DNA from: a virus
DNA length: 64,000 bases
IMG/VR virus record: IMGVR_UViG_3300016665_000824
Coordinates: 70,297 to 134,296 of that record
Strand: one strand, 5' to 3'
The position numbers and the translations under genes were made by a program. The notes under the pieces are model-generated. The model did not search any database. It saw only the letters and a program-made list of their open reading frames with translations, and was not told where the DNA came from. This document shows positions 14,579 through 62,068 of the stretch, one piece after another. How positions within the stretch are numbered: the stretch's first letter is position 1; the number at the start of each line of letters is the position of its first letter.

Positions 14579-16336
14579 CTAGCTAGCGATCGCCATTAAT
14601 TTAGTCAACCCAGCCTTCCGCAACATCTCTTGCTGGAGCTTGGTTTGAAAATATGGCTTATCCTCAGCACTTGCTACTCGATACAGTTCCAGCCAGTATT
14701 TCTCCCGCTTCTCGCAGTGTATATGCTGAATCTTGGCGATCGCACGGTCAACCACTGCCTTGACATCGCCAGCGATCGCCTCTTGCATTGCGTAAGGTAT
14801 GTCCGAAAAGTCATCGTTCAGGAATTTATCCCACAGCGCACAGTGATCGTCATGGGCAAATTCGATCTCTTGAAGCAGGATATACCCCCGCAAATCGGGA
14901 TGATGGACAAAGGCTTTTAGTATCTGCATTTCGGCTAGTTGCAGAGCAGTATAACTGGGTTTTGCGGCAACCTGTGGTGATTCAGATCGGAATACCGATC
15001 GCGCAAGTCGATGTAAATCCTCCTCAATGCGTACGGCAAGGCGAGCATTTCCCTGAGCTAACTTCTGAGCACACTTATGGGTATAGTGGCTACGTCGGGC
15101 ATCCATCGGCAATGGGGCGAGTATTTGCGCGATCGCTTGATTAGCTCGCTGGAAGTCGGCAGAATTGTTAAGGTCTTTGCCCTTAATCTCAAGGTCAATT
15201 AACCAGTCAAGGTATAGCGGCGCTTCGCGGAGCAGCGATAAGTACGCTTCAGAACCATAAGTGGTTAGGTACTCGTCGGCATCTTTTTTGCCCTCAATGG
15301 TTAGTATCCGTAGATTTACCGTACCATCCAGAACTAGCTCTAGGACTTGACTTACGGCTTTTTTAGTTGCCGTAACACCTGCTTTGTCCGAGTCGAAGTT
15401 GCAAACTATACGCTTCGACTCAGTATGGCGTAAAACCTGTTTAATTTGAGCGGCGCTAAGCGCTGTGCCCATTGAGCCGACTGCATGGGTAATTCCATTT
15501 TGGTGCAGGGAAATCACGTCGAGGTGTCCTTCGACAATTACCGCCTCGTCGTTCTTGGCGATCGCCTCACAAGCTTTGTCTAGTCCAAACAGTAGTTCAC
15601 CCTTTTTGAACAACTCGGTTTCGGGCGAGTTGATATACTTTGCGCCGTCGTCCTCACCGCTTAGCGATCGCGCAGAAAATCCAACCACGCGACCACGGAT
15701 ATCGGCGATCGGGATAATCAGGCGATCGCGAAATCGGTCATAGTAGCCTTCGTTTTCTTTGCGAGGTATCGCCAACCCCAATTCTTCAAGAGTTTGAACG
15801 GGGATATTTAACTCGGCAAGGTTACTCCACCCCGCAGGCGCGTAACCGAGCTTGAACTTATTGCAGGTATCTCTGGTGATTTTGCGTTTTTCTAAGTAGG
15901 CAAGGGCTTTGGTGTTGAGCTGTTGCTGGTAGTAACGAGTGACTTTAGCTATTTGATCGAAGAGGTATTCCCTGTGCGATCGCTCCTTAACGATTTGCTC
16001 GGCATGTTCTGGCTCTTCGGTTCTTACTTCAACCCCGTAACGACCAGCCAAATCTAGTACGGCATCTGGGAACGATTTATGACCAATCTCCATCATAAAC
16101 TTGATCGCACCACCCGACGCACCGCAGTTATGGCAGTAATACATGCCTTTGCTGGGGTCTACCGAGAGGGCGCTGGGATTCGTGCCGTTGTGAAATGGGC
16201 AAGCGCCACGAAATGAGTGACCCGACCGCTTAAGTACGACGTTTTCGCTAACGACATCAACGATGTCGGCTTTGTCGTTTACTGCGGCGATCGTATCAGC
16301 ATGGATTCGGAATGATTTAGGTTTGGCGGATTGCAT
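14579..16336 (-). CDS. dnaG: DNA primase DnaG
   Basis: CHC2 zinc finger (CPFHNGTNPSALSV...YYCHNCGASGGAIKF) and TOPRIM-like EGHLDVISL segment. Confidence 0.85.
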   Translation of the reverse strand: MQSAKPKSFRIHADTIAAVNDKADIVDVVSENVVLKRSGHSFRGACPFHNGTNPSALSVDPSKGMYYCHNCGASGGAIKFMMEIGHKSFPDAVLDLAGRYGVEVRTEEPEHAEQIVKERSHREYLFDQIAKVTRYYQQQLNTKALAYLEKRKITRDTCNKFKLGYAPAGWSNLAELNIPVQTLEELGLAIPRKENEGYYDRFRDRLIIPIADIRGRVVGFSARSLSGEDDGAKYINSPETELFKKGELLFGLDKACEAIAKNDEAVIVEGHLDVISLHQNGITHAVGSMGTALSAAQIKQVLRHTESKRIVCNFDSDKAGVTATKKAVSQVLELVLDGTVNLRILTIEGKKDADEYLTTYGSEAYLSLLREAPLYLDWLIDLEIKGKDLNNSADFQRANQAIAQILAPLPMDARRSHYTHKCAQKLAQGNARLAVRIEEDLHRLARSVFRSESPQVAAKPSYTALQLAEMQILKAFVHHPDLRGYILLQEIEFAHDDHCALWDKFLNDDFSDIPYAMQEAIAGDVKAVVDRAIAKIQHIHCEKREKYWLELYRVASAEDKPYFQTKLQQEMLRKAGLTKLMAIAS

Positions 16337-16565
16337 CTTGATCTTCCCTATCTACGCGAGCTTCTCCCTCTAAAACTTTTTGCAGGTCTAAAACTCTGAA
16401 GCCGACTGGGTTGCACTGAGTTAACTTGGCTGCGTCATGGATGGCATGACCATACTCTTCGTAAATCTTTCCCTCTTCTACCCCCGCTTCGGCGCAGGCA
16501 GGGCCAGAATAAGGCTCGGAGGTGTAACGACTCGATTTATTGATGATGTACTTAGGCATATTCAC
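16317..16565 (-). CDS. hypothetical protein
   Basis: 82-aa ORF overlapping primase start by 20 nt. Confidence 0.35.
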   Translation of the reverse strand: MNMPKYIINKSSRYTSEPYSGPACAEAGVEEGKIYEEYGHAIHDAAKLTQCNPVGFRVLDLQKVLEGEARVDREDQDAIRQT

Positions 16566-16600
16566 CTCTTGAGAATCTTTTGTACGATCGCTTGTTGTCG

Positions 16601-16903
16601 TTAAACAAATAGGAAGGACTGAACTTCATCAGCCTTGGTTGCGACCAACGGCAAGTGCTGACGCAGTATCTTGTACCCTTGCATCTCCCAAGTCAAAGCA
16701 ATCCTCTCCGCTAGCTCTAAAGCGTCATAACAAGGATTTAATCGATGAAAAACACCGCTCAGTAATTCGTACCCACACTCAGGGGGGAGTTGCTCAAGAT
16801 CTTGGATTAGCTGAGTAATTTTAGTACTTACCGTGATACCACCTTGATTAACAAAAATAGTCGCGTCAAATGTTTTGCTTAGACCTTTCAAATTGATTGT
16901 CAT
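16601..16903 (-). CDS. hypothetical protein
   Basis: ORF 16601..16987; start moved to ATG 16903 (MTINLKG...). Confidence 0.35.
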   Translation of the reverse strand: MTINLKGLSKTFDATIFVNQGGITVSTKITQLIQDLEQLPPECGYELLSGVFHRLNPCYDALELAERIALTWEMQGYKILRQHLPLVATKADEVQSFLFV

Positions 16904-16913
16904 TTTGTTCTTC

Positions 16914-17378
16914 CTATATCTTTTGCGCGATCGCTTGCTTATGGATGCGATCGCTATGTGTTTGCACTGCCGCCAATTCCCGCTCAAGCTGATCGAATGT
17001 CACTCCATCCCTCTTGTCGCCGTCAACCACTGGGGTTAGTACGGGGTTGATAACTGGGGAGTAGACACACCAGCAGATAGCGATCATGTCGAACTCGGAA
17101 GACAATCCTTCAGCCTTAAAGACCTCTACCGAATCAACAACCCAATCGGACTTACGAGAATGTGTAGTCCCATCGTCACGCTGATGGGACTTGAGAGACT
17201 CGGTTACTGTTACTGGGTGGATAGGTCGATCGCCTTTCTTTGGCACGGGTTTTGATGAGTAGCTAAGAACCGTGTAGAGGATGTCGGTAAATAGATTGCA
17301 GTGAGTTAGCTTGCGATCGCTAGCACCCTCAGTTTGTCCCACTTTTGCCTTATAGATAATATATTTACTCACTGTCAT
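16914..17378 (-). CDS. hypothetical protein
   Basis: 154-aa ORF. Confidence 0.4.
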   Translation of the reverse strand: MTVSKYIIYKAKVGQTEGASDRKLTHCNLFTDILYTVLSYSSKPVPKKGDRPIHPVTVTESLKSHQRDDGTTHSRKSDWVVDSVEVFKAEGLSSEFDMIAICWCVYSPVINPVLTPVVDGDKRDGVTFDQLERELAAVQTHSDRIHKQAIAQKI

Positions 17379-17586
17379 TGTCTCCGTATGTTCTGGGGAA
17401 TTTTGCTTCGCCTTTGTAGAAGCAGTTGTGTGTCAGGATTGGATCTCTTGTCAGCTCGTAATGAGAGTAATCCCAATCGTATTTCTTAGCCATTTTTATA
17501 CATCTTTCTTCGCTTGACGCGCTGTGAGTTGTATAAAACTCCTGTTCTTCGTCGTCGTCATTCTGTGGCAAAATCTCGTTAGCCAT
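17365..17586 (-). CDS. hypothetical acidic protein
   Basis: 73-aa ORF, first gene of minus block divergent from XRE gene. Confidence 0.35.
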   Translation of the reverse strand: MANEILPQNDDDEEQEFYTTHSASSEERCIKMAKKYDWDYSHYELTRDPILTHNCFYKGEAKFPRTYGDNDSE

Positions 17587-17731
17587 TAGACCTCTCAGAT
17601 AGGTTTGTTTGGTTAGAGGTGATTGCTTGTTGAGAGCAGGCGATCGCCTCGATAGAAATATTATTGCAGAAGTATTGCCAAAACGTCAACTATTGTTTTA
17701 CACTTAGAGCATATTAATTCGGTGTAGCGAT

Positions 17732-17965
17732 ATGACTAGTTCTACTTTTGTTGTTGAAGTACCTGTAGAGGTCGGAGACCTACCCCAAAAAATATGGGAG
17801 GCTCGGAGACTTTGCCGACGCAATCATGTTGATTTGTGTAGGGATGCTGGCATAACCCGACAATATTGGACACAAATTGAGAAGGGGCAACGCAAATCAA
17901 TCCCTTTACACACACTAAGAAAAATAGAAAAAGCTTTAGGCGTTGATTTTGGTATTCAGGCTTAG
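17732..17965 (+). CDS. XRE-family helix-turn-helix transcriptional regulator (Cro/CI-like)
   Basis: ...LCRDAGITRQYWTQIEKGQRKSIPLHTLRKIEKALGV is a typical XRE HTH; divergent from minus-strand block. Confidence 0.6.
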   Translation: MTSSTFVVEVPVEVGDLPQKIWEARRLCRRNHVDLCRDAGITRQYWTQIEKGQRKSIPLHTLRKIEKALGVDFGIQA

Positions 17966-17970
17966 AAATT

Positions 17971-18327
17971 ATGAAAAAGTTAGACCCCGATGAAATTATC
18001 AACATCAGCTTTGGCTGGTGCTACTTACTTAAAAATGGCGATCGCGTCTGGGAGCAGGACGACGAAGCTATCTGGGCGCATGATGGTGAGGGTGAAATTC
18101 GGTGGGATCGTGTCAAGGATATTGAGGCGATCGCTGCTCAAGACCCCACCGCCAGATACTTGCTAGTTGTAGACGGAGCCATGTATTCGCGAATATACGA
18201 GCGCTTTGCAACTGGCTGGGTGCAGATTAGGCAGATGCTCGGATTTGCGGATGACTACAGCGCTGAGCTTTTTCAAGAAGAGTTGGAGCGGATTGTTCGT
18301 GAAAAGACATTGTGTTTTGTTGAATAG
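17971..18327 (+). CDS. hypothetical protein
   Basis: 118-aa ORF. Confidence 0.4.
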   Translation: MKKLDPDEIINISFGWCYLLKNGDRVWEQDDEAIWAHDGEGEIRWDRVKDIEAIAAQDPTARYLLVVDGAMYSRIYERFATGWVQIRQMLGFADDYSAELFQEELERIVREKTLCFVE

Positions 18328-18359
18328 GCTGCGATCGCATAAAAATCGAGGAGAAAACC

Positions 18360-18806
18360 ATGAGTTACGACGGGAACATTTACGAGGATGCTATGGAATC
18401 AATTTCACAGTTATCCTCAACGGAAAATCTTTTGTCTTGGGCTAAGAAACTGCGAGAGGCGGCTGAAGTCGAAACGTATCGCAGTCAGTTTTTGATAAAT
18501 ACAGCGTGGAATCTTGAGGAGTGCGCGTGGATGCCTGAGCTATTACAGCAGCTTGAGGATATGGGGATCAAAAGAAACACAATGTTTGGCGGCGCTCCGA
18601 CTGGGAGGGGGCAGACAGGATACTGGACCCATTTAGCCCCCAAGGACTGCGATTTCGATCCTTGTATCTCACCCGTGTTTGGTAAGACTGAGTATGAGTC
18701 ACTGAAAGAGGCGATCGCGCTGGAGGTACAAATCCGAGAGTATATGACTGGTTGGAGCAAAATACCCTTTGCTTGTTCTATACCTGCGGAAGTAGGCGAT
18801 CGCTAA
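18360..18806 (+). CDS. hypothetical protein
   Basis: 148-aa ORF. Confidence 0.4.
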   Translation: MSYDGNIYEDAMESISQLSSTENLLSWAKKLREAAEVETYRSQFLINTAWNLEECAWMPELLQQLEDMGIKRNTMFGGAPTGRGQTGYWTHLAPKDCDFDPCISPVFGKTEYESLKEAIALEVQIREYMTGWSKIPFACSIPAEVGDR

Positions 18807-19170
18807 TTTTTAATCCGCAACGTAATTTTGTTGTGCTATTGTTGTAATCACCAAAGAAGCAAATGAGAGACCCACCTGCTAAAAATAAGCAAAAAATAAA
18901 AGAGCCAACCGCCAAGTCGCTCTTTCATTCTTTGAAAATGATTGTTTGTTTCACTTCAGTTTCGGTTGTTCCTTCCACCTCGTCGTTTACACGCCTTGGC
19001 TGTTTGTGTTCAACACGACACTAATTTCCTGAATACTCTAACACATGGCGATCGCTTTGTGAAGGGGAATTTACGGAATTGGTGAAAAAACTGGAAGACA
19101 AGTGGTTTCTTGGGAATCTCAAGAACGCTTTGGTTGTTTTTTACACTTTAGTTTCGTAGGAAATTTAGTT

Positions 19171-19701
19171 ATGCTCTCAAGCGAAGAATACATACGCGAC
19201 AGACAAGACTTCGGTTGCTGGGAAGCCCGTATATTTTACTCCCCAGAATTAGATGCCGTTGTTGCGGCAGGTTTTATGGATGGGTTGATCTTCAACAAGG
19301 AAGAACTCTTCCAGCTAGGCTCATTACTCCTTGATGCCTCAATTAACGTTTCGGGTAAAGACATCTGCCACCTCAATAATCGGACATCGGCGAGAGGTCG
19401 TTCTGACAAGGATTTTTGGCTACAGCGCAAGAATAGATCTGGACTCGTGTATCTAATCAAGGCGATCGGGACTAACTACTACAAAATTGGTAGAACAAAA
19501 GATATTGAGACTAGATTAGAGACCCTGCAAAAGTCATCTCCATTCGACCTCTCGCTGATTCTTGCCATAGAAACATCAGACTCTTTGGCTCTAGAGAGGT
19601 ACTTCCACGATAAGTACAATGATTGTCGAGTTAGGGGTGAGTGGTTTGAGCTAGATGAGTATGCGATCGCTGAATTTATGAGCTACGAGGAGGTCGCGTG
19701 A
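19171..19701 (+). CDS. T5orf172-domain protein (GIY-YIG-like nuclease fold)
   Basis: C-terminal GLVYLIKAIGTNYYKIGRTKDIETRLETLQ ... ERYFHDKY...GEWFEL matches the T5orf172 pattern; start set at first ATG (ORF track starts at GTG 19102). Confidence 0.55.
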   Translation: MLSSEEYIRDRQDFGCWEARIFYSPELDAVVAAGFMDGLIFNKEELFQLGSLLLDASINVSGKDICHLNNRTSARGRSDKDFWLQRKNRSGLVYLIKAIGTNYYKIGRTKDIETRLETLQKSSPFDLSLILAIETSDSLALERYFHDKYNDCRVRGEWFELDEYAIAEFMSYEEVA

Positions 19702-20924
19702 TGAAAGGATACGAACAGACCTGCCCCAAAGTCGAAGCGATCGGGCAAATCAACTTTCACGGCGACGGTGTTTTTACGCCAAACAACTGGTATCACAACA
19801 TCTGTCACAAGAACGGTAAACCCTATCTCGAAGCAATAATTCTTCTTGCGGATATTGTTTCTTGGTATTTGCCCATCTACGAAAGAGATGAAGTCACTGG
19901 CAAGACGATTGGGGTCAGGAAAAAATTCAAGGCAGACAAACTCCAGCGAAACTACGACTCTTTTGCGGACCATTATGGCATGACCAAAGATCAAGCTAGA
20001 AATGCTCTGAAACACCTAGAAAGAGACGGACTCATAGACCTAGAGCTAAGAACAGTCGAAACTTCAGTACAAAAGCTTGGAAATGTTTTGTTTATCGGTG
20101 TTTACCCAGAAAAAATCAAGGATTACACTTTCACCCTCTCGCCAAAAGAACAGACCCCTGTGCTCACAGAAACCGATAGGGGTATCGACAGAAAAGCAGA
20201 GGGGTCTGCACAGAAACAGACAGCACTCCCCACAGAAGCCCAGACAAATACAGATCAATCTACAGATCTTTCTACTGATCAATCTACTAAAAATATAAGA
20301 GCGGATGAATTTTTTGCGATCGCTCCTTCGTCGCAAATCCAAGAAAATTCTTTTCCCGCACAAACAGAAAATCCGAGAATTGAAGAAACCCCAACACCCC
20401 CTACCCCCTCTTCCCCTTCCGCGCCCGAAAATATCGGCAAGGCGATCGCGCCCTCGGTAGCCACCTCAAAACAGGCAGAAGCGTATATGCAGTTTGAGCA
20501 GCGCTTTAGCCAACCAAAACCTCAAAACCGCCACGTACCCAAACTGCTTGTGGAGGCTGGCTATGCAGAATGGCACAACGGCAAACACCCGAACGACTGG
20601 CGCAAATCCTTGATAGATGTTTGCATCCAAAGGAAGAAAAAGCGTGGCGATGAAGCGACTGTAGGTGCAGCCACCGACTTTATTTTTAACGTAATGAAAG
20701 ACTGTATTTCCCTCGGATTCTGGGGTAAGTTCCAAGAGCTTGTTGATCAAGCCCTAAAGCTCGAAGCCGTCGAAGCGATCGCCGCACAACAAAAACAAAT
20801 TGAAGATCAGCGATTCGAGCAACAGCCAGTTGAATCTAACGCCCCCACAATGACTCTTGAACTTCGCAAGCAATATGCTGCCGAATTGAGACGTAAAGCC
20901 AACAACATGAGACTAATTGCTTAA
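19701..20924 (+). CDS. candidate replication initiation / helicase-loader protein
   Basis: 408 aa immediately upstream of and coupled to dnaB (TGATG overlap with previous stop); winged-helix-like N-terminus, low-complexity linker; function inferred from position only. Confidence 0.3.
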   Translation: MKGYEQTCPKVEAIGQINFHGDGVFTPNNWYHNICHKNGKPYLEAIILLADIVSWYLPIYERDEVTGKTIGVRKKFKADKLQRNYDSFADHYGMTKDQARNALKHLERDGLIDLELRTVETSVQKLGNVLFIGVYPEKIKDYTFTLSPKEQTPVLTETDRGIDRKAEGSAQKQTALPTEAQTNTDQSTDLSTDQSTKNIRADEFFAIAPSSQIQENSFPAQTENPRIEETPTPPTPSSPSAPENIGKAIAPSVATSKQAEAYMQFEQRFSQPKPQNRHVPKLLVEAGYAEWHNGKHPNDWRKSLIDVCIQRKKKRGDEATVGAATDFIFNVMKDCISLGFWGKFQELVDQALKLEAVEAIAAQQKQIEDQRFEQQPVESNAPTMTLELRKQYAAELRRKANNMRLIA

Positions 20925-20928
20925 AACT

Positions 20929-22656
20929 ATGAAAGACCCACAACAGATCCAAAGACTCAACGCTCAGATCGAACCTAGCAACGTTGAAGCCGAACAAACG
21001 ATCATTGCGGGGGTTTTTGAAGGTGGAAGCCTTCTTAGCCTAGTCGCCGACGCAATCACACCTGAGATGTTTTTTTCGAGCCTTCTAGGGGCATTTTTTA
21101 GGGCATCGTTGTTTTTGAGAAATAGCGATCGCGACATAAACACCCTAACCTTAGCCGCCGCGCTACAGGAGATGGGTTTTAAAGACTTTTACGGCTTTGA
21201 CAGTATCTCGGCGCTAGTCCACAACACCTATGCCGACATTATGGGCAGCACGTATATTCAAAGTCCAGCCCACTACGAATCTGCCGCCGCCCTAATCCGT
21301 GAAGCCTCCGTAAGGCGAGACCTGATTAAAGCTGGCAGAGCAGCGATCGCCGCAGCCTACGATCAAGAAATATCTGTGCTTGATGCCTGTACTAAAGCTC
21401 AAGATTTGATTGGGGATGCTATGACATCATCTCAGGTTCGTAGTACCGTGTTTGAGGTTGGTACAACCTACACAAACATGTGTGCGGAACTTCTCGATCC
21501 TCAAATTGGAGAGTTCAATCCCGTAATCCCCAGTGGTTATGCGGCGTGGGATGAAATGCTTGAAGGTGGTTTTCGGGGTGCTGAACTCGCGGTTATTGGT
21601 GGAGACTCGGCGATCGGTAAGTCGATGCTCTTGTTTGGTGCGGCATGGAATATGGCGAAATTCCTTTCGGATCAAGGTAGGGTGGGTTATATCGGCTCGA
21701 TGGAAATGTCCACTCGTAGCGTTGTGCATCGCTGGATTGCTTCCGAAGCGCAAGTGGCTTTATCTCGGATGCGTCGCCGAGAATTAAGCGAAGCCGATTG
21801 CGAAAGGATTATGAAGGCATCTAGCGCTGGCGAAATGTTGAATAACCTTGTAATTGACGAGGACAACAAGGCTACTATCCCCCAAATGCTTAACCGAGCC
21901 AAAGAATTTGCACGTAAACATGCTAGAAAATATGGCGGTAGCGGCGAGCTTGGCTTTATGGTTATCGACAACATCAAGATCGCCGAAAAAGGTGGTGACG
22001 ATTTCAACTTGGTTAACCGATACCTCAAAGATCTCAAGGGGATTGCAAAGGATTACAACATCCCGATAATCTCTTTGTCTCAGCTAACTAGAGAATCCCT
22101 GTTAAAAAGTTCTGACAAACGCCCTACTGTTGAGGGGTTGTATGGCGGCAAAGCGATTGAAGAAAATGCTGACGACATTTTTGGCTTGTATCGAGGTGTT
22201 AAGTACGACGATTTCTCTATCCCCACAAACCGAGCTGAGATTATTCGTCTGAAAGGTCGAAACTCAGACCAGTCAAAGGAAAATAGAACGATTTTGCTTG
22301 GCTTCAATGGCGCTCTTTCTACTTTTTACGACCTTGGCGAACCAAAACTAGCCCAAAAATCGGAGCAAAAACAAGCGATCGCCACACCAGTCACCGAAGA
22401 CATTAACTACTTCGGCGATCTCGAAGATGGATGTCAAGTTGTTCTGGATATTTCCTACTCAACACCTGAAGAAAAATCGGAGATCAGCGATCGTATCAAC
22501 GCAAAGCAGCTACCAAAGCCCAATGAAGTCTGTGGAGTAACCCGCCTAAGCGTTTGCGAAACTCCTGAAGTAGGTAAATTTGGGGTTGCCCACCTAATAC
22601 TGCCCGACAACTCCGAAATGAAGGTTGCAGTAGACGAATTGCGCCGAGTCAGTTAG
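20929..22656 (+). CDS. dnaB: replicative DNA helicase DnaB
   Basis: DnaB-like N-terminal domain (NVEAEQTIIAGVF), Walker A GGDSAIGKS, RecA-like core; start set at ATG 20929 (ORF track TTG 20917). Confidence 0.75.
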   Translation: MKDPQQIQRLNAQIEPSNVEAEQTIIAGVFEGGSLLSLVADAITPEMFFSSLLGAFFRASLFLRNSDRDINTLTLAAALQEMGFKDFYGFDSISALVHNTYADIMGSTYIQSPAHYESAAALIREASVRRDLIKAGRAAIAAAYDQEISVLDACTKAQDLIGDAMTSSQVRSTVFEVGTTYTNMCAELLDPQIGEFNPVIPSGYAAWDEMLEGGFRGAELAVIGGDSAIGKSMLLFGAAWNMAKFLSDQGRVGYIGSMEMSTRSVVHRWIASEAQVALSRMRRRELSEADCERIMKASSAGEMLNNLVIDEDNKATIPQMLNRAKEFARKHARKYGGSGELGFMVIDNIKIAEKGGDDFNLVNRYLKDLKGIAKDYNIPIISLSQLTRESLLKSSDKRPTVEGLYGGKAIEENADDIFGLYRGVKYDDFSIPTNRAEIIRLKGRNSDQSKENRTILLGFNGALSTFYDLGEPKLAQKSEQKQAIATPVTEDINYFGDLEDGCQVVLDISYSTPEEKSEISDRINAKQLPKPNEVCGVTRLSVCETPEVGKFGVAHLILPDNSEMKVAVDELRRVS

Positions 22657-43375: not shown

Positions 43376-44035
43376 CTAGCCTCCGTAATAGTCAGCACAT
43401 AAATACTCAAGCGATCGCCCTATTTTAACCGAGTAATTCTCACCCTCGATACTAGCTTCCTGCATCACCTTTTCTAAAGCCGCTCTCACGATCTCCACAG
43501 CGTCCGTAGGAACACTAAAGATCATTCGAGTGAATTCATCACTGGCTTCGGGAGGAGCTTTCTCCTTGGCGGCTTCGAGCATCTTGGCGAGACTTTCCTT
43601 TGTGTGAGGTGTGGGGAGATAAGCGCGATCGCCTAATTTCTTTTCAACCCTTTTGAGGGAAACACTTAGCTTAACTGGATCTTCTTCGCCGTGAGCCTTG
43701 GATGCGGAGGTGTATAACTCGTATTCTTCATCCTGTAAGCCCGTAATGACATTGCAATAGTAGTATTCCAGCCCCTCTAAGTATCTATGTTCGCCATTTA
43801 CAATCTCGTACTCACCCTCAATATGCGGATGGGGGCGAACAACAAGCGGCTCAATTTGGGTAAACATCTTTAAGCTCTCCCCCAAAGCCTTTTGGTGGTG
43901 AGGCTGCAAAACGTTTGAGTTCCAAGAGTTCGGATGTATCTTTGAGGTCTCAATCTTTACATTCCACTCTTTCTGGATTCGTTGCGCGATCGGTAGCGAA
44001 TAATCAATCTTCTTCGTCATCTTCATCCTCTTCAA
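43376..44035 (-). CDS. ParB-like nuclease-domain protein
   Basis: N-terminal segment (IHPNSW ... QIEPLVVRP ... YEIVNGEHRY) resembles the ParB N-terminal domain. Confidence 0.4.
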   Translation of the reverse strand: MKRMKMTKKIDYSLPIAQRIQKEWNVKIETSKIHPNSWNSNVLQPHHQKALGESLKMFTQIEPLVVRPHPHIEGEYEIVNGEHRYLEGLEYYYCNVITGLQDEEYELYTSASKAHGEEDPVKLSVSLKRVEKKLGDRAYLPTPHTKESLAKMLEAAKEKAPPEASDEFTRMIFSVPTDAVEIVRAALEKVMQEASIEGENYSVKIGRSLEYLCADYYGG

Positions 44036-45185
44036 ATTTCTTGGGCATAATTACCGATGTCAGGAATGATTCCTGCTCTACTCCGTCGCAAGGGCTAACC
44101 ATTACTAGCGGTCGAGTTCCCTCGTATACCTCCAGCTTAATGTGTTTTGATTTTGTGGTATCCAAAATATGCTGCAAGTATTTTATGTTGAACCGAGCAG
44201 CAAATCCTGACACGCCAACATCGCATGGCAGTGATTCTTCCACCCTGCCAACACCCGCAACTTCAGCAACAAGTATCAACTCATCACCCTTGATAGTGAT
44301 GTCAACCAAGTAGCTAGTAATCTCACCCTCACACAACGAAGCAACGGTCTTCAAGCTGGTAATCAGCTCTTTGCGATCGCACTTTACCGACCCAGACATC
44401 TCTTTGAGCCGTACGTTAACGAGACTCGATCGTACTGGTGGAAATGGTTGAGCAATTAGTGGTGAGATGATGGTTAGCGCGTGGCTATAAAACCAAATAT
44501 GGTTACTGGCTAAACGCACTTCAGTCTCTGCTTGGGTGATGTGCAGAACCTCTTTGAGCGATCGCGCAGGTATTGTCGCATTAATCAGCTTTTCACTCAA
44601 TTCGGGGTGGACAAATCTGATACAAGATCCTCGACAGCCATCGGTTGCTGTGAAGGATAGGAATCTCGTCGGGTCATCTTCACCATCAATGATTTCGTCG
44701 TACTCCGCTAGGTTCACACCCGTAAGTGCAGGCTTAGTTTCGTCGTTAGATACGAGCTTTAAGGTAGCCACAATGCCGTCCCGCAGTATATCTGTGGCGA
44801 TCGCAAAGGTGTCAGCATCAGTAATCTTGGGGGTGCTTGGGTATGAGTCGGCGCTGATAGTTGGTAGTGAGATTTTACTCTTACCACACTTAATAGTGGC
44901 AATACCTTCGGATACCTTGATTAAAACCTCTTCACCGTTGAGGGACTTTACCGCGTCGGAGAATCGCTTGGCATTGAGCGCGATCGCGCCCTCTTCTTTG
45001 ATACTATCGGAATCCTCTCTGCGGATTAGCCAAAGCTTTAGGTCGGTAGCTGTGATGGTGAAGAGATCGTTCTTCGCTTCGAGTCGAAAGTTTGTTAAGA
45101 TTTCCTGCGGTGGAGACTTAGAAACAGCTTCCTTTACTGCGTCCACCATCGATTTCAACGTTTTGAGAGGGAGTGTTAGTTGCAT
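44004..45185 (-). CDS. dnaN: DNA polymerase III beta sliding clamp
   Basis: 393 aa; N-terminus (LKTLKSMVDAV ... FTITATDLKLWL) matches DnaN pattern and length. Confidence 0.75.
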   Translation of the reverse strand: MQLTLPLKTLKSMVDAVKEAVSKSPPQEILTNFRLEAKNDLFTITATDLKLWLIRREDSDSIKEEGAIALNAKRFSDAVKSLNGEEVLIKVSEGIATIKCGKSKISLPTISADSYPSTPKITDADTFAIATDILRDGIVATLKLVSNDETKPALTGVNLAEYDEIIDGEDDPTRFLSFTATDGCRGSCIRFVHPELSEKLINATIPARSLKEVLHITQAETEVRLASNHIWFYSHALTIISPLIAQPFPPVRSSLVNVRLKEMSGSVKCDRKELITSLKTVASLCEGEITSYLVDITIKGDELILVAEVAGVGRVEESLPCDVGVSGFAARFNIKYLQHILDTTKSKHIKLEVYEGTRPLVMVSPCDGVEQESFLTSVIMPKKFEEDEDDEED

Positions 45186-59575: not shown

Positions 59576-59823
59576 GGCAGTATCCTGTCCAGCAGGTAGA
59601 TAATTAAGTGCATAGCCTTAACATTCCTGTTCGCGCAGTATATCTTCAGGCGAGTATGCAGTGAAGCAGGTAGATCAACCGTGATCCGCACAGTCCGCTC
59701 CTTCTCCCCTTCCACGGGCAACCCATCCAAAATATTTCCCGCAGTATTGTTTGTGTTCAGATCGGAATTAGCCTTGATAAAATTCTGCTCAATTGTTTCG
59801 GTAAGAGGTATACGCTTAGACAC
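59572..59823 (-). CDS. ParG-like ribbon-helix-helix protein (candidate centromere-binding partner of ParA)
   Basis: C-terminal RITVDLPASLHTRLKIYCANRNVKAMHLIIYLLDRIL is RHH-like; immediately downstream of and overlapping parA. Confidence 0.45.
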   Translation of the reverse strand: MSKRIPLTETIEQNFIKANSDLNTNNTAGNILDGLPVEGEKERTVRITVDLPASLHTRLKIYCANRNVKAMHLIIYLLDRILP

Positions 59824-60448
59824 AGCTCAGCACCTCCTCAAATAAAGCTTCGTACTCTGCCGCCGAATCTTGGGCGGCTTTGCTGTTTAATCCCCAGACA
59901 GTTGTGCGTTGACCAGACGAGTCGGCGATCGCCTGTTTCTGGTGAATCACTGTTTCTAACAATGGGATAACCGATATGGCTTTTAAGGTGGCGATCGCCT
60001 CTTCCTTGAGCATGGTTCGAGGGACTGCGCGGTTTAAAAAGAATGCGGCTCTGGGTAAACCCCCTCGCACTGACTGAGCTTGCAGTATTAGCTTTACTGA
60101 GTCCATTGCCGAGTTGAGGTCTAACCTTGTTGGTTGACATGGAACAATTGCTAGATCAGTTCTTAGTAGGATTGCGCGAGTTACCTCCGACAAGTTGGCG
60201 GGACCATCGAGGATTAAGTAGTCGCTCTTTAGGGCTGGTATTTTGTCGAGAATGCTGTCGGAATCGGACATGATTGTATATGCGATCGGAGTGGCGATCG
60301 TGCCTGCCCATTTACTTGAAGATTGCTGACCATCGGCATCGACCAGGATTACGTCTTTATCGTGGCGGCGCAGATACTCTGCCAAGTGGACTGAAGTGGT
60401 GGACTTGCCACAACCACCTTTTTGATTGACCAACGAGATTACAGTCAT
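59816..60448 (-). CDS. parA: partition ATPase ParA (small, type Ib-like)
   Basis: Deviant Walker A NQKGGCGKST, 210 aa. Confidence 0.8.
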   Translation of the reverse strand: MTVISLVNQKGGCGKSTTSVHLAEYLRRHDKDVILVDADGQQSSSKWAGTIATPIAYTIMSDSDSILDKIPALKSDYLILDGPANLSEVTRAILLRTDLAIVPCQPTRLDLNSAMDSVKLILQAQSVRGGLPRAAFFLNRAVPRTMLKEEAIATLKAISVIPLLETVIHQKQAIADSSGQRTTVWGLNSKAAQDSAAEYEALFEEVLSCV

Positions 60449-60597
60449 AGTTATTCGTGGGAGTATTACCTCCGCGCATTAAACCATGATCGTTGCGATA
60501 CTGCAATCAGTAAGTACTGAAGGTGTCCGCGCAAACGTTATTTGTGATGCTGGAAGCTTTACTGGGAAAGGGTTTTAGAATGTCCTTGCAAATAAGA

Positions 60598-60798
60598 TTA
60601 GTTGACTGACCTTATTTTAAAATGCTTGCAATTCACTGGGCAGCGATCGCCTAACCAAGATGCTTCGGTATGGACGTGGAGATCGCTAGTTTTCCAGATT
60701 TGTGGGTTATAGCAATGGTCGGCGCAATCGGGGCTGTACGACTCCCACTTCGGATTAACCCCGTTCCAGTAACAGTCGAGTCGGGTTTCGGTGTGCAT
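60598..60798 (-). CDS. hypothetical Cys-rich protein
   Basis: 66-aa ORF. Confidence 0.3.
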   Translation of the reverse strand: MHTETRLDCYWNGVNPKWESYSPDCADHCYNPQIWKTSDLHVHTEASWLGDRCPVNCKHFKIRSVN

Positions 60799-60801
60799 GT
60801 C

Positions 60802-61050
60802 CTACCAGAACCAATTATCGTAGAAAGTTATAGTCAAGCAAAAAGCAAGTAGTTCAAGCCCAAACTGGATCTCTCCAGTATCGTCATAACAAAATATCCT
60901 AAGCCATGTCTCTGGATAGGAATGTGTGATTTGAAAATCTAGCTTAACCAACGGGATCTGACTAGGCTCAATCAGTATCCAAGCATTGTCCTGATATGGC
61001 AGCTCGTATGGATTGTTGTGGTCGTATTCAAATTTTTTGATTTTGAACAT
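60802..61050 (-). CDS. hypothetical protein
   Basis: 82-aa ORF. Confidence 0.3.
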   Translation of the reverse strand: MFKIKKFEYDHNNPYELPYQDNAWILIEPSQIPLVKLDFQITHSYPETWLRIFCYDDTGEIQFGLELLAFCLTITFYDNWFW

Positions 61051-61250
61051 AAATATTAAAAAGCGATCGCCAATAGGCTATGTGATTTTTACGATTCTAA
61101 ACTTGATATCTCGATATGTCCGACGCAAAGATGACAGCTCCACCTTGGCTTCTTTCTTGTCGTACTGATACTTATTTTGTCTAACCCATACGTTAGGCTG
61201 CTCAAACTTTGTTACTAACTTTTCAATTGCGTACATCGTTGTAACTGGTT

Positions 61251-61440
61251 TAAAAAGCGATCGCTATCCTGAAGAGAGGTGGATAGGCGATCGCAAAATG
61301 TACATCATGAAAAATCCTCTCCCCACAATCTTAACTTGGATTCGCATTAAAAAGCGATCGCTATCCTGAAGAGAGGTGGACAGGCGATCGCTAAAATGAT
61401 TATCTAACATGACCTCTCCCCACAATTTTAACTTGATTTT
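61251..61440. repeat. two tandem ~97-bp repeats, each with a pair of HIP1 sites
   Basis: taaaaagcgatcgctatcctgaagagaggtgga(t/c)aggcgatcgc ... cctctccccacaat(c/t)ttaacttg at 61251 and 61348; ORF-free region upstream of the par operon. Confidence 0.6.
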
Positions 61441-61594
61441 GTGGCAAAAAAATACCGACGTCCTGTGGAGTGGTGGACGACGGGCTATGTAATCTCGATG
61501 GTCTGGAAATATTCTACGCGGTTTTGTGGCGCTTTTATTATCGAATCCCGCATTTAATCGATAATAACGAGAAAATTATTCCTAGATATTATCA

Positions 61595-62068
61595 GTGCCA
61601 ATAACAACCACCATGACTCTCGACTACACCCTCGGATATCTCACGGCAACCTTTGACTCCAACGATTCCCACGGCAAGAGTAGCTCGCCCGAATATGCCG
61701 TGTGGAAATCAATGGTGAACCGATGTACCAATAAGTCGAATAACAACTACGTCAACTATGGCGGTAAGGGTGTCACGGTATCAAAGGAGTGGCGAGACTT
61801 CGAGCAGTTCTACAAGGACATGGGGAAGAAGCCTGCGGGGGCATCGCTGGATAGAATTGACCCGAAGAAGGGCTACAGCAAAGGTAATTGCCGATGGGCT
61901 GAAGCTGGCGATGCTGGCGCGAGGACAAACGATGTGTATATCAAGGTGGGCGGGAAGAAAAAACGGCTCAAGGATGTTGCTGCGGCGAAGGGGTTGAAGG
62001 AGGATACCCTGCGGAAGCGGGTTAATCGAGGGATGGACATGAAGACTGCGGTGACGAAGAAGGCGTAA
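61595..62068 (+). CDS. phage-family DNA-binding protein (HNH_3/AP2-like fold)
   Basis: YAVWKSMVNRC ... YGGKGVTVSKEW ... SLDRIDPKKGYSKGNCRWA motif common in phage genes; G-rich codon usage and no HIP1, unlike surroundings. Confidence 0.4.
   Translation: MPITTTMTLDYTLGYLTATFDSNDSHGKSSSPEYAVWKSMVNRCTNKSNNNYVNYGGKGVTVSKEWRDFEQFYKDMGKKPAGASLDRIDPKKGYSKGNCRWAEAGDAGARTNDVYIKVGGKKKRLKDVAAAKGLKEDTLRKRVNRGMDMKTAVTKKA

What the first reader, a model, noticed from the sequence alone, without database searches (positions are those of the whole stretch)
17587..19170. Candidate lysis-lysogeny type switch around the XRE regulator
The XRE HTH gene (17732-17965) is divergent from a minus-strand block of small genes that ends with dnaG. 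The 145-bp region between them and the region upstream of the T5orf172 gene both contain a GTTTTACACTT-like sequence (17691-17703 and 19131-19145). Shared upstream sequence may mark co-regulated promoters under the XRE protein.
Basis: inference. Interest (0 to 1): 0.4.

Follow-up and report, generated by a model that had tools for sequence, protein, structure and literature searches.

The report
Cyanophage early-gene control region
This is the early-gene control region of an uncultured cyanobacterial phage: two back-to-back promoters and a small Cro-like regulator gene. The 10-base word it shares with the next intergenic region is most likely a coincidence, not a common operator for that regulator.

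Summary
The genes and the exact shared 10-mer (TTTTACACTT, 17696-17705 and 19139-19148) are real. The match is statistically weak: two regions of these sizes share some 10-mer about 5-6% of the time.

In six to seven related phage lineages, the first site is the -10 hexamer (TAnnnT) of a rightward promoter that keeps its position. This promoter interdigitates with a leftward promoter. The second site is a window-specific variant (TTACAC instead of TTTCAC) of a repeat inside a 364-bp non-coding cassette. That cassette stays 78-96% identical whichever of three unrelated small regulators a lineage carries, so it does not co-vary with the XRE protein.

The layout resembles the lambda early right operon: promoter, Cro-like HTH gene, small genes, bidirectional terminator, a conserved antisense promoter, then initiator and DnaB. 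The regulator and its promoters are swapped as a cassette between near-identical phages, as in lambdoid immunity regions. However, no CI-like partner gene or integrase was found. A ParA/RHH pair hints at plasmid-like maintenance.

Verdict: an ordinary early regulatory module. The shared-operator idea is not supported, and a lysogeny role is unproven.

The parts
14579..16336 (-). dnaG primase, the last gene of the leftward early block
   Evidence: Precomputed Pfam hits Zn_ribbon_DnaG, DNAG_N and Toprim. It is 74-78% nt identical in L008 and L013, and 97.5% identical in L014.
16317..17586 (-). Four small leftward genes (orf82, orf128, orf154, orf73) with no recognisable domains
   Evidence: ORFs. 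No Pfam, PHROG or PADLOC assignment. This segment is replaced in the near-identical relative L014.
17590..17620 (-). Hairpin ACCUCU...AGAGGU in the leftward leader that sequesters the Shine-Dalgarno sequence of orf73
   Evidence: RNAalifold on 4 lineages: 6-pair helix with 2 compensatory pairs.
17660..17689 (-). Predicted leftward promoter P_L: -35 TTGACG (17689-17684), 18-nt spacer, -10 AATAAT (17665-17660)
   Evidence: 10 of 12 consensus match. Equivalent promoters lie 67-74 nt from the left gene start in L008, L012, L013 and L014.
17675..17704 (+). Predicted rightward promoter P_R: -35 TTGCCA (17675-17680), 18-nt spacer, -10 TACACT (17699-17704). It interdigitates with P_L.
   Evidence: In all 7 lineages a TTGCnA/TTGACT-N17/18-TAnnnT promoter ends 23-29 nt before the regulator ATG.
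17696..17705 (+). Site A of the finding, TTTTACACTT. It consists of the P_R -10 hexamer plus flanking T residues.
17732..17965 (+). 77-aa XRE/Cro-C1-type HTH protein, the first gene of the rightward operon
   Evidence: Pfam HTH_3, HTH_31 and HTH_26. PHROG transcriptional regulator/repressor families. Only 3 homologues found in the large protein database.
17971..18806 (+). orf118 and orf148, early genes of unknown function
   Evidence: orf148 is absent in L005, and both are absent in L004, where the conserved cassette follows directly.
18848..18934 (.). Conserved block 1: a long A-tract/stem/T-tract hairpin (18890-18934) that can act as a bidirectional intrinsic terminator, plus a second minus-strand hairpin (18858-18880)
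   Evidence: RNAalifold on 6 lineages: stems kept, loops vary, 2 compensatory pairs. The minus-strand hairpin was also reported. Pairwise identity is 78-91%.
18942..18964 (+). Repeat B, TTGTTTGTTTCACTTCAGTTTCG
   Evidence: A 23-nt direct repeat of C, found nowhere else in the window (0.04 expected). The GTTGTT-N-TTCAC core is present in all 6 lineages.
19035..19063 (-). Conserved minus-strand promoter TTCACA-N17-(TGT)TAGAGT
   Evidence: It is identical in 5 of 6 lineages and reads TCCACA-N17-TAAAGT in L004. It is the only promoter-like site that keeps its position in this region.
18890..19028 (-). Predicted antisense RNA of about 139 nt (93-139 nt across lineages), running from the minus-strand promoter to the terminator. 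The complement of repeat B is unpaired or in a loop.
   Evidence: Folding gave z-scores of -1.9 to -4.5. This is inferred; no transcript data exist.
19074..19156 (+). Conserved block 2: predicted leader hairpin pairing the anti-C arm (19074-19091) with the C arm (19136-19156; repeat C spans 19134-19156). It encloses the small hairpin 19107-19125.
   Evidence: RNAalifold on 5 lineages: 44 pairs over block 2 as a whole, 2 of them compensatory, one in this hairpin (L004 GTGAAT/ATTCAC). Pairwise identity is 81-96%.
19139..19148 (+). Site C of the finding, TTTTACACTT. It is a window-specific variant of repeat C; relatives read ATTTCACTTT, ATTTCACATT or AATTCACTTT.
19171..19701 (+). T5orf172/MUG113 (GIY-YIG-like) gene, present only in this lineage
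   Evidence: Pfam. In L001, L008 and L013 the initiator ATG occupies the same position after the cassette.
19698..22656 (+). Replication initiator (phrog_270) and DnaB helicase
   Evidence: The initiator C-terminal half and DnaB are 74% nt identical in L001, while the initiator N-terminal half is unrelated.

Best explanation
The region 17587-19170 is the early control region of a large uncultured cyanobacterial tailed phage, carried on a 134-kb contig.

(1) The 145-bp gap holds two interdigitated sigma-70-type promoters. P_L drives the small genes and dnaG. P_R drives the XRE gene, orf118 and orf148. The -35 box of each promoter lies in the spacer of the other.

(2) The XRE protein is a Cro-like first gene. 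It most likely acts on the right half of this same gap, because that half and the regulator are replaced together in relatives. This step is inferred.

(3) The rightward operon ends at a conserved bidirectional terminator.

(4) Downstream lies a conserved non-coding cassette that always precedes the replication module. It contains a conserved antisense promoter and a repeated GTTGTT-N-TTCAC motif, present as B, C and an inverted copy. The most likely reading is a short antisense RNA plus a structured leader that tune expression of the replication genes, as plasmid countertranscripts or lambda oop do. This step is inferred and held with lower confidence.

(5) The 10-mer shared by the two regions is a coincidence between the -10 box of P_R and a lineage-specific variant of repeat C. 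It is not a common XRE operator.
For: - Phage identity: portal, large terminase, clamp and endolysin.
- Promoters: with position conserved in 7 lineages.
- Regulator classes: three non-homologous classes occupy the same position (19-26% identity; HTH_3 versus HTH_26 versus no family).
- Cassette replacement: L014 is 97.5% identical in dnaG and 93% in orf118, but 16325-17970 is replaced.
- Conservation of the second region: blocks 1 and 2 are 78-96% identical in all classes, against about 70-78% for flanking coding DNA and 25-59% for the middle.
- Site C: reads TTTCAC/ATTCAC in relatives, including the XRE-class L004.
- No word shared between the two regions at the promoter in relatives.
- A 10-mer match arises by chance in 5-6% of trials.
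- Antisense promoter is invariant.
- Terminator and leader structures each show a few compensatory pairs.
- Predicted antisense RNAs leave the complement of B accessible.
Against: - There are no transcript or binding data, so all promoters, terminators and RNAs are predictions.
- Only six lineages exist and compensatory changes are few (2 per structure).
- B and C do not co-vary lineage by lineage, so an RNA-pairing role is not distinguished from a protein-site role.
- An XRE operator overlapping the P_R -10 box cannot be excluded.
- L005, the closest XRE-class relative, is cut just before site C, so a window+L005-specific TTACAC variant cannot be ruled out.
- TTTACAC occurs 4 times within 17697-19146 out of 9 copies in the window. 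This post-hoc clustering remains unexplained.
Confidence: 0.6

Rival explanations
1. One reading: the XRE protein binds a GTTTTACACTT-like operator in both intergenic regions. It would then co-regulate its own operon, the leftward operon and the T5orf172/replication operon as a lysis-lysogeny switch.
For: The exact 10-mer is found only at these two places in 64 kb. Four of the nine TTTACAC copies cluster within 17697-19146. Small XRE proteins commonly autoregulate at their own promoter (general knowledge).
Against: The match is expected by chance in 5-6% of trials. There is no dyad symmetry and no longer match. Site C differs in L004, which has a 72% identical XRE. The second region is conserved with unrelated regulators. 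Site A varies the way a -10 box does.
Confidence: 0.07
2. The repeated GTTGTT-N-TTCAC elements (B, C, the inverted copy at 19081-19091, and the -35 of the antisense promoter) are DNA sites for a conserved phage or host protein, or part of a rightward replication promoter. In that promoter TTGTTA would serve as -35 and GAAAAT as -10, giving a leaderless mRNA. On this reading they are not RNA-pairing elements.
For: The motif core is conserved in all lineages in both orientations. TTGTTA-N16/17-(G/A)AAAAT ends 6 nt before the ATG in L008, L013 and L004. B and C do not co-vary within lineages.
Against: The spacing is 19-21 nt in the window and in L001, so the promoter reading fails there. The motif does not vary with the initiator N-terminal domain, which is unrelated between the window and L001/L008. 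No candidate binding protein has been identified.
Confidence: 0.25
3. The second region is conserved only because it serves as a homologous 'linker' where gene modules are exchanged. It would have no regulatory role beyond an ordinary terminator.
For: Different gene sets abut it on both sides. On the left these are XRE alone (L004), orf118 (L005) or orf148. On the right these are T5orf172 or two different initiator N-termini. Several contigs break near it.
Against: Conservation is patterned: two blocks of 78-96% identity flank a 25-59% middle. The blocks coincide with a promoter-like site and with structures that tolerate loop changes but not stem changes.
Confidence: 0.08

Closest known systems
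Phage lambda early right operon (P_R, cro, tR1, cII, oop, O, P)
   Same: The gene order matches: promoter, small Cro-type HTH gene, small genes, terminator, short antisense promoter facing back, initiator, then helicase function. The initiator has a variable N-terminal half, short tandem repeats in mid-gene and a conserved C-terminal half. This resembles lambda O with ori inside it (general knowledge).
   Different: No cI-like repressor gene is transcribed leftward from the shared region. No three-operator array is present. The predicted antisense RNA does not overlap an upstream coding gene. The helicase is a DnaB homologue rather than a loader. The proteins are not detectably homologous to the lambda proteins.
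Immunity-region mosaicism of lambdoid phages (imm-lambda, imm434, imm21)
   Same: The regulator plus its adjacent promoter/operator DNA is replaced as a unit between otherwise near-identical genomes (window versus L014). Three regulator classes are seen.
   Different: Only one regulator gene per cassette is recognisable. Neither immunity nor lysogeny has been shown.
Plasmid countertranscript (antisense RNA) control of rep genes, e.g. R1 CopA/CopT, pMV158 RNA II, ColE2 RNA I
   Same: There is a constitutive-looking antisense promoter inside the leader of the replication genes. It gives a short RNA ending in an intrinsic terminator, with an accessible segment complementary to leader sequence near the start codon.
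   Different: The RNA has not been demonstrated. Its body is the least conserved part of the region. No sequence or Rfam relationship exists. The element is a phage.
Small XRE-family autoregulators (Cro, and controller C-proteins of restriction-modification systems)
   Same: It is a 77-aa single-domain HTH encoded first in its operon, directly after its promoter.
   Different: No dyad operator could be identified. There is no adjacent restriction gene.

Membership tests
XRE / Cro-C1 HTH family (Pfam HTH_3) | Match to the HTH_3 profile above the gathering score | tested here: met
   28.6 bits against a cutoff of 23; HTH_26 at 26 against 22.
Lambda-type CI/Cro bistable switch | Two antagonistic DNA-binding regulators transcribed divergently from the shared control region | tested here: not met
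   The leftward genes orf73, orf154, orf128 and orf82 have no DNA-binding or any other domain hit in Pfam, PHROGs or PADLOC. Sequence profiles could miss a novel fold.
Lambda-type CI/Cro bistable switch | Array of two or three similar dyad-symmetric operators overlapping the divergent promoters | tested here: not met
   No repeated dyad in 17587-17731. The only symmetry comes from the two opposed -35 boxes.
Lambda-type CI/Cro bistable switch | Repressor with an oligomerisation or self-cleavage domain (peptidase S24 or similar) | tested here: not met
   The protein is 77 aa and consists of the HTH only.
Temperate phage / phage-plasmid | Integrase, or a plasmid partition and replication set | tested here: inconclusive
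   No integrase among genes with recorded Pfam hits from about -9.7 to +74 kb in window coordinates; about 5 kb (48.4-53.5 kb) was not covered. A ParA-like ATPase with a small RHH-like gene, an initiator and a Rha-family protein are present. About 50 kb of the contig was not examined.
Shared operator regulon (as P1 C1 or LexA boxes) | The same site recurs upstream of the regulated genes, is conserved in relatives and co-varies with the regulator | tested here: not met
T5orf172 / MUG113 (GIY-YIG-like) | Profile match above the gathering score | tested here: met
   MUG113 at 64 bits against 22.3; T5orf172 at 46.4 against 20.
Intrinsic (Rho-independent) terminator | Stable stem-loop followed by a T-run, with conservation of the stem rather than the loop | tested here: met
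   For 18890-18934 the stem is invariant, the loops vary and the T-run on the minus strand is TTTTATTTTTT. Function was not tested.
Countertranscript-type replication control | An antisense RNA is actually made and pairs with the rep leader | not testable with these tools
   Only the promoter, terminator and complementarity are predicted.
Iteron-type origin in the second region | Three or more regularly spaced direct repeats that co-vary with the initiator DNA-binding domain | tested here: not met
   There are only two direct copies, about 100-190 bp apart with variable spacing. They are unchanged between lineages with unrelated initiator N-termini.
Any Rfam RNA family | Covariance-model match | tested here: not met
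   The only hit in 16000-21000 was PtaRNA1 at E = 0.98, 20.8 bits against a cutoff of 47.

The most novel reading that the evidence does not exclude
The conserved 364-bp cassette encodes a plasmid-style antisense RNA and a structured leader, linked through the B, C and anti-C copies of one motif. These would set the expression level of the replication module in a previously undescribed clade of large cyanobacterial phages. The phages would be maintained as plasmids (ParA/RHH pair, initiator with internal iterons) and would diversify through swapping of immunity-like regulator cassettes.
Probability: 0.2. Interest if true: 0.5.

Novelty: new member of a known kind. Interest (0 to 1): 0.3.

Why it matters
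Little is known about how cyanophages that infect HIP1-rich, probably freshwater, cyanobacteria control their early genes, or whether any of them are temperate. This locus supplies three things:
- a clear, comparatively supported map of divergent early promoters;
- an exchangeable Cro-like regulator cassette;
- a conserved non-coding cassette in front of the replication genes.

If the phage proves to be plasmid-like and the antisense RNA is real, this would be a tractable example of plasmid-type copy control in a cyanophage. As it stands, the value is mainly annotation. It also shows that a 10-base match between two intergenic regions is not evidence of co-regulation.

Tried and rejected
- Nucleotide searches of annotated phages and plasmids found no match. 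Protein-level neighbours are only about 26-31% identical (S-CBS4, CL131, PaV-LD).
- The GTDB genome scans found nothing. The JGI metagenome scan and the first two IMG/VR DNA-pattern scans returned only two related contigs, one also reached by a protein look-up. A looser pattern gave 70 loci, none related apart from those two contigs.
- The small ORFs in the second region were rejected as coding. These are the plus-strand MRDPPAKNKQKIKE... at 18863 and a minus-strand hydrophobic 45-aa ORF at 18915-18778. Their lengths vary from 23 to 109 aa, and 1-nt indels shift the frame in L001 and L004 while the DNA stays conserved.
- The gene caller's GTG start at 19102 for T5orf172 was rejected. The upstream DNA is conserved in front of unrelated genes and contains 1-nt indels.
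- DnaA-box-like reading of TTTCAC: the matches are at most 7 of 9, which is about the chance level (own count; not pursued).
- A test of whether B matches its own lineage's C better than other lineages' C gave a flat matrix.
- Unrestricted RNA duplex prediction was uninformative because it was dominated by A/U tracts.
- No convincing dyad operator for XRE was found by comparing the window, L004 and L005.
- The PADLOC defence-system scan gave only generic HTH and GIY-YIG-like hits.
- The PDB sequence search gave only generic HTH proteins at E >= 0.014.

Full report
CONTEXT

The window is part of a 134,398-bp metagenomic contig, ENA ERZ27292652 k141_20893. It encodes a portal protein, large terminase, sliding clamp, endolysin-like peptidase and tail fibre. 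It also encodes DnaG, DnaB, SSB, ThyX, dCTP deaminase, MazG and two DNA methyltransferases. The octamer GCGATCGC is scattered throughout. This octamer is the HIP1 palindrome typical of cyanobacteria (general knowledge). The closest annotated phages are cyanobacterial siphoviruses, at only about 30% portal identity. The element is therefore an uncharacterised cyanophage.

CHECKING THE OBSERVATION

- The XRE gene lies at 17732-17965 (Pfam HTH_3).
- A 145-bp gap follows on its left.
- Beyond the gap, a minus-strand block of four small genes ends with dnaG.
- The T5orf172/MUG113 gene lies at 19171-19701.

The exact word TTTTACACTT occurs only at 17696-17705 and 19139-19148. However, nothing longer is shared. 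One-mismatch copies occur at the chance level. Shuffled or random real segments of these two lengths share some 10-mer in 5-6% of trials. The match is real but weak.

RELATIVES

Protein look-ups and pattern scans recovered six further lineages with the same synteny. The shared order is:
- dnaG and small genes on the minus strand;
- gap 1;
- a small regulator and zero to three small genes on the plus strand;
- gap 2;
- the replication initiator and DnaB.

The first rightward gene falls into three unrelated classes (19-26% identity):
- HTH_3, in the window, L004 and L005/L006;
- HTH_26, in L008-L011 and L012;
- a 70-aa protein with no family hit, in L013 and L014.

L014 is 97.5% identical to the window in dnaG and 93% identical in orf118. 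Yet the segment 16325-17970, which holds the leftward small genes, gap 1 and the regulator, is replaced.

GAP 1 (17587-17731)

The consensus scan finds a leftward promoter, TTGACG-N18-AATAAT (17689-17660). It also finds a rightward promoter, TTGCCA-N18-TACACT (17675-17704). Each -35 box lies inside the spacer of the other promoter.

The same architecture recurs in every lineage:
- A rightward TTGCnA/TTGACT-N17/18-TAnnnT promoter ends 23-29 nt before the regulator ATG.
- A leftward promoter ends 67-74 nt before the left gene.

What is conserved there is a -10 box, not a specific word. The left half of the gap is conserved across regulator classes. It folds, on the leftward transcript, into a hairpin that covers the ribosome-binding site. 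The right half changes together with the regulator class. This is the best, though indirect, indication that the regulators act there.

GAP 2 (18807-19170)

This region is more conserved than the genes around it.
- Block 1 (18826-18935) is 78-91% identical between lineages.
- Block 2 (19031-19140) is 81-96% identical.
- The middle is 25-59% identical.
- Flanking coding DNA is about 70-78% identical.

The region follows orf148 in most lineages, orf118 in L005 and the XRE gene itself in L004. It precedes either T5orf172 (window only) or the initiator ATG. It is conserved with all three regulator classes and with two unrelated initiator N-termini.

This repeat is found nowhere else in the window. 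Relatives read ATTTCACTTT, ATTTCACATT or AATTCACTTT at C, including XRE-class L004. In relatives that carry both gaps, no promoter-region word is shared between them. One caveat remains: L005, the nearest XRE-class relative, is cut just before C.

WHAT GAP 2 MOST LIKELY IS

Block 1 folds into a long A-tract/stem/T-tract hairpin (18890-18934). Its stem is conserved and its loop varies, giving a plausible bidirectional terminator. A second hairpin lies on the minus strand.

Block 2 begins with the only promoter-like site that keeps its position in all six lineages. It lies on the minus strand and reads TTCACA-N17-(TGT)TAGAGT (19063-19035).

Together these elements predict an antisense RNA of 93-139 nt. 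Its body is variable, except for the complement of repeat B, which is unpaired or in a loop in every fold.

The rest of block 2 can form a leader hairpin. In this hairpin an inverted copy of the motif (19074-19091) pairs with C (19136-19156), just before the start codon. One compensatory change occurs in L004, GTGAAT with ATTCAC.

This resembles lambda oop or plasmid countertranscript control (general knowledge). It remains an inference for three reasons:
- There are no transcript data.
- Compensatory pairs are few.
- B and C do not co-vary lineage by lineage.

A protein-site or promoter reading of the motif fits some lineages and is kept as the main rival. No Rfam family matches.

IS IT A LYSIS-LYSOGENY SWITCH?

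Points in favour:
- The overall order is lambda-like.
- The regulator cassette is exchangeable.
- A ParA-like ATPase with a small RHH-like partner sits next to a gene-free region containing 97-bp tandem repeats.
- A Rha-family protein lies just outside the window.

Points against:
- No second regulator is transcribed leftward.
- There is no operator array.
- The XRE protein is a bare 77-aa HTH.
- No integrase was found across about 80 kb of gene calls with recorded Pfam hits. About 5 kb inside that span, and about 50 kb of the contig beyond it, were not examined.

The lifestyle cannot be decided from sequence. I estimate the chance that this module is a true immunity or decision region at roughly 0.3.

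VERDICT

This is an ordinary, well-organised phage early control region in a new cyanophage lineage. The co-regulation inference is not supported. The conserved replication-leader cassette is the more interesting by-product.

Noticed in passing
window 59630-61600: A ParA/CbiA-like ATPase (59816-60448, minus strand) is followed by an 83-aa RHH-like gene. Upstream lies a roughly 1.1-kb gene-free stretch holding a 97-bp tandem repeat in 2-3 copies (61219-61478). This looks like a type Ib partition cassette with a candidate centromere. It hints at plasmid-like maintenance.
   Followed up: partly
window 20249-20287; L001 1483-1515; L008 11548-11580: A 12-nt tandem repeat in about 3 copies lies in the middle of the initiator gene. 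It sits at the junction between the variable N-terminal half and the conserved C-terminal half, and an A/T-rich run follows it. The unit is ACAGATCAATCT (with GATC) in the window and TACAGAGATTAC in L001 and L008, which have a different N-terminal domain. These are candidate origin iterons inside the initiator gene, as in lambda O.
   Followed up: partly
window 19171-20250 versus L001 701-1480: The T5orf172 (GIY-YIG-like) gene is present only in the window. It sits exactly where relatives have the initiator ATG. The L001 initiator instead carries an HNH-nuclease-like motif. Two different nuclease-type insertions therefore occupy the same spot. The gene caller's GTG start at 19102 for T5orf172 is probably an over-extension.
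   Followed up: partly
L014 versus window 15090-18362: L014 is a near-identical phage (dnaG 97.5%, orf118 93%). Its leftward small genes, gap 1 and regulator (window 16325-17970) are replaced by unrelated sequence. This is an immunity-region-like mosaic cassette.
   Followed up: yes
window 17590-17620 (minus strand): A conserved hairpin in the leftward leader pairs ACCUCU with the Shine-Dalgarno region of orf73. Compensatory changes occur in L013 and L008. It may act as a translational control element.
   Followed up: partly
L008 5791-6984: An IS605-type OrfB/TnpB gene is inserted next to dnaG in the L008 lineage. It is absent from the window.
   Followed up: no
window 7700-74000 (gene tables): The phage encodes a sliding clamp (44004-45185), DnaB, DnaG, SSB and an initiator. 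No DNA polymerase was seen in the gene tables examined. It may rely on the host polymerase III.
   Followed up: no
L088 2278-3003 (about 7 kb upstream of the window start): A 241-aa Rha-family phage regulatory protein (Pfam Phage_pRha). The family is seen mostly in temperate phages.
   Followed up: no
window 17697, 17905, 18986, 19140: Four of the nine TTTACAC copies in the window fall within 1.45 kb, all on the plus strand. One of them lies inside the XRE coding sequence. This clustering was noticed post hoc and remains unexplained.
   Followed up: partly
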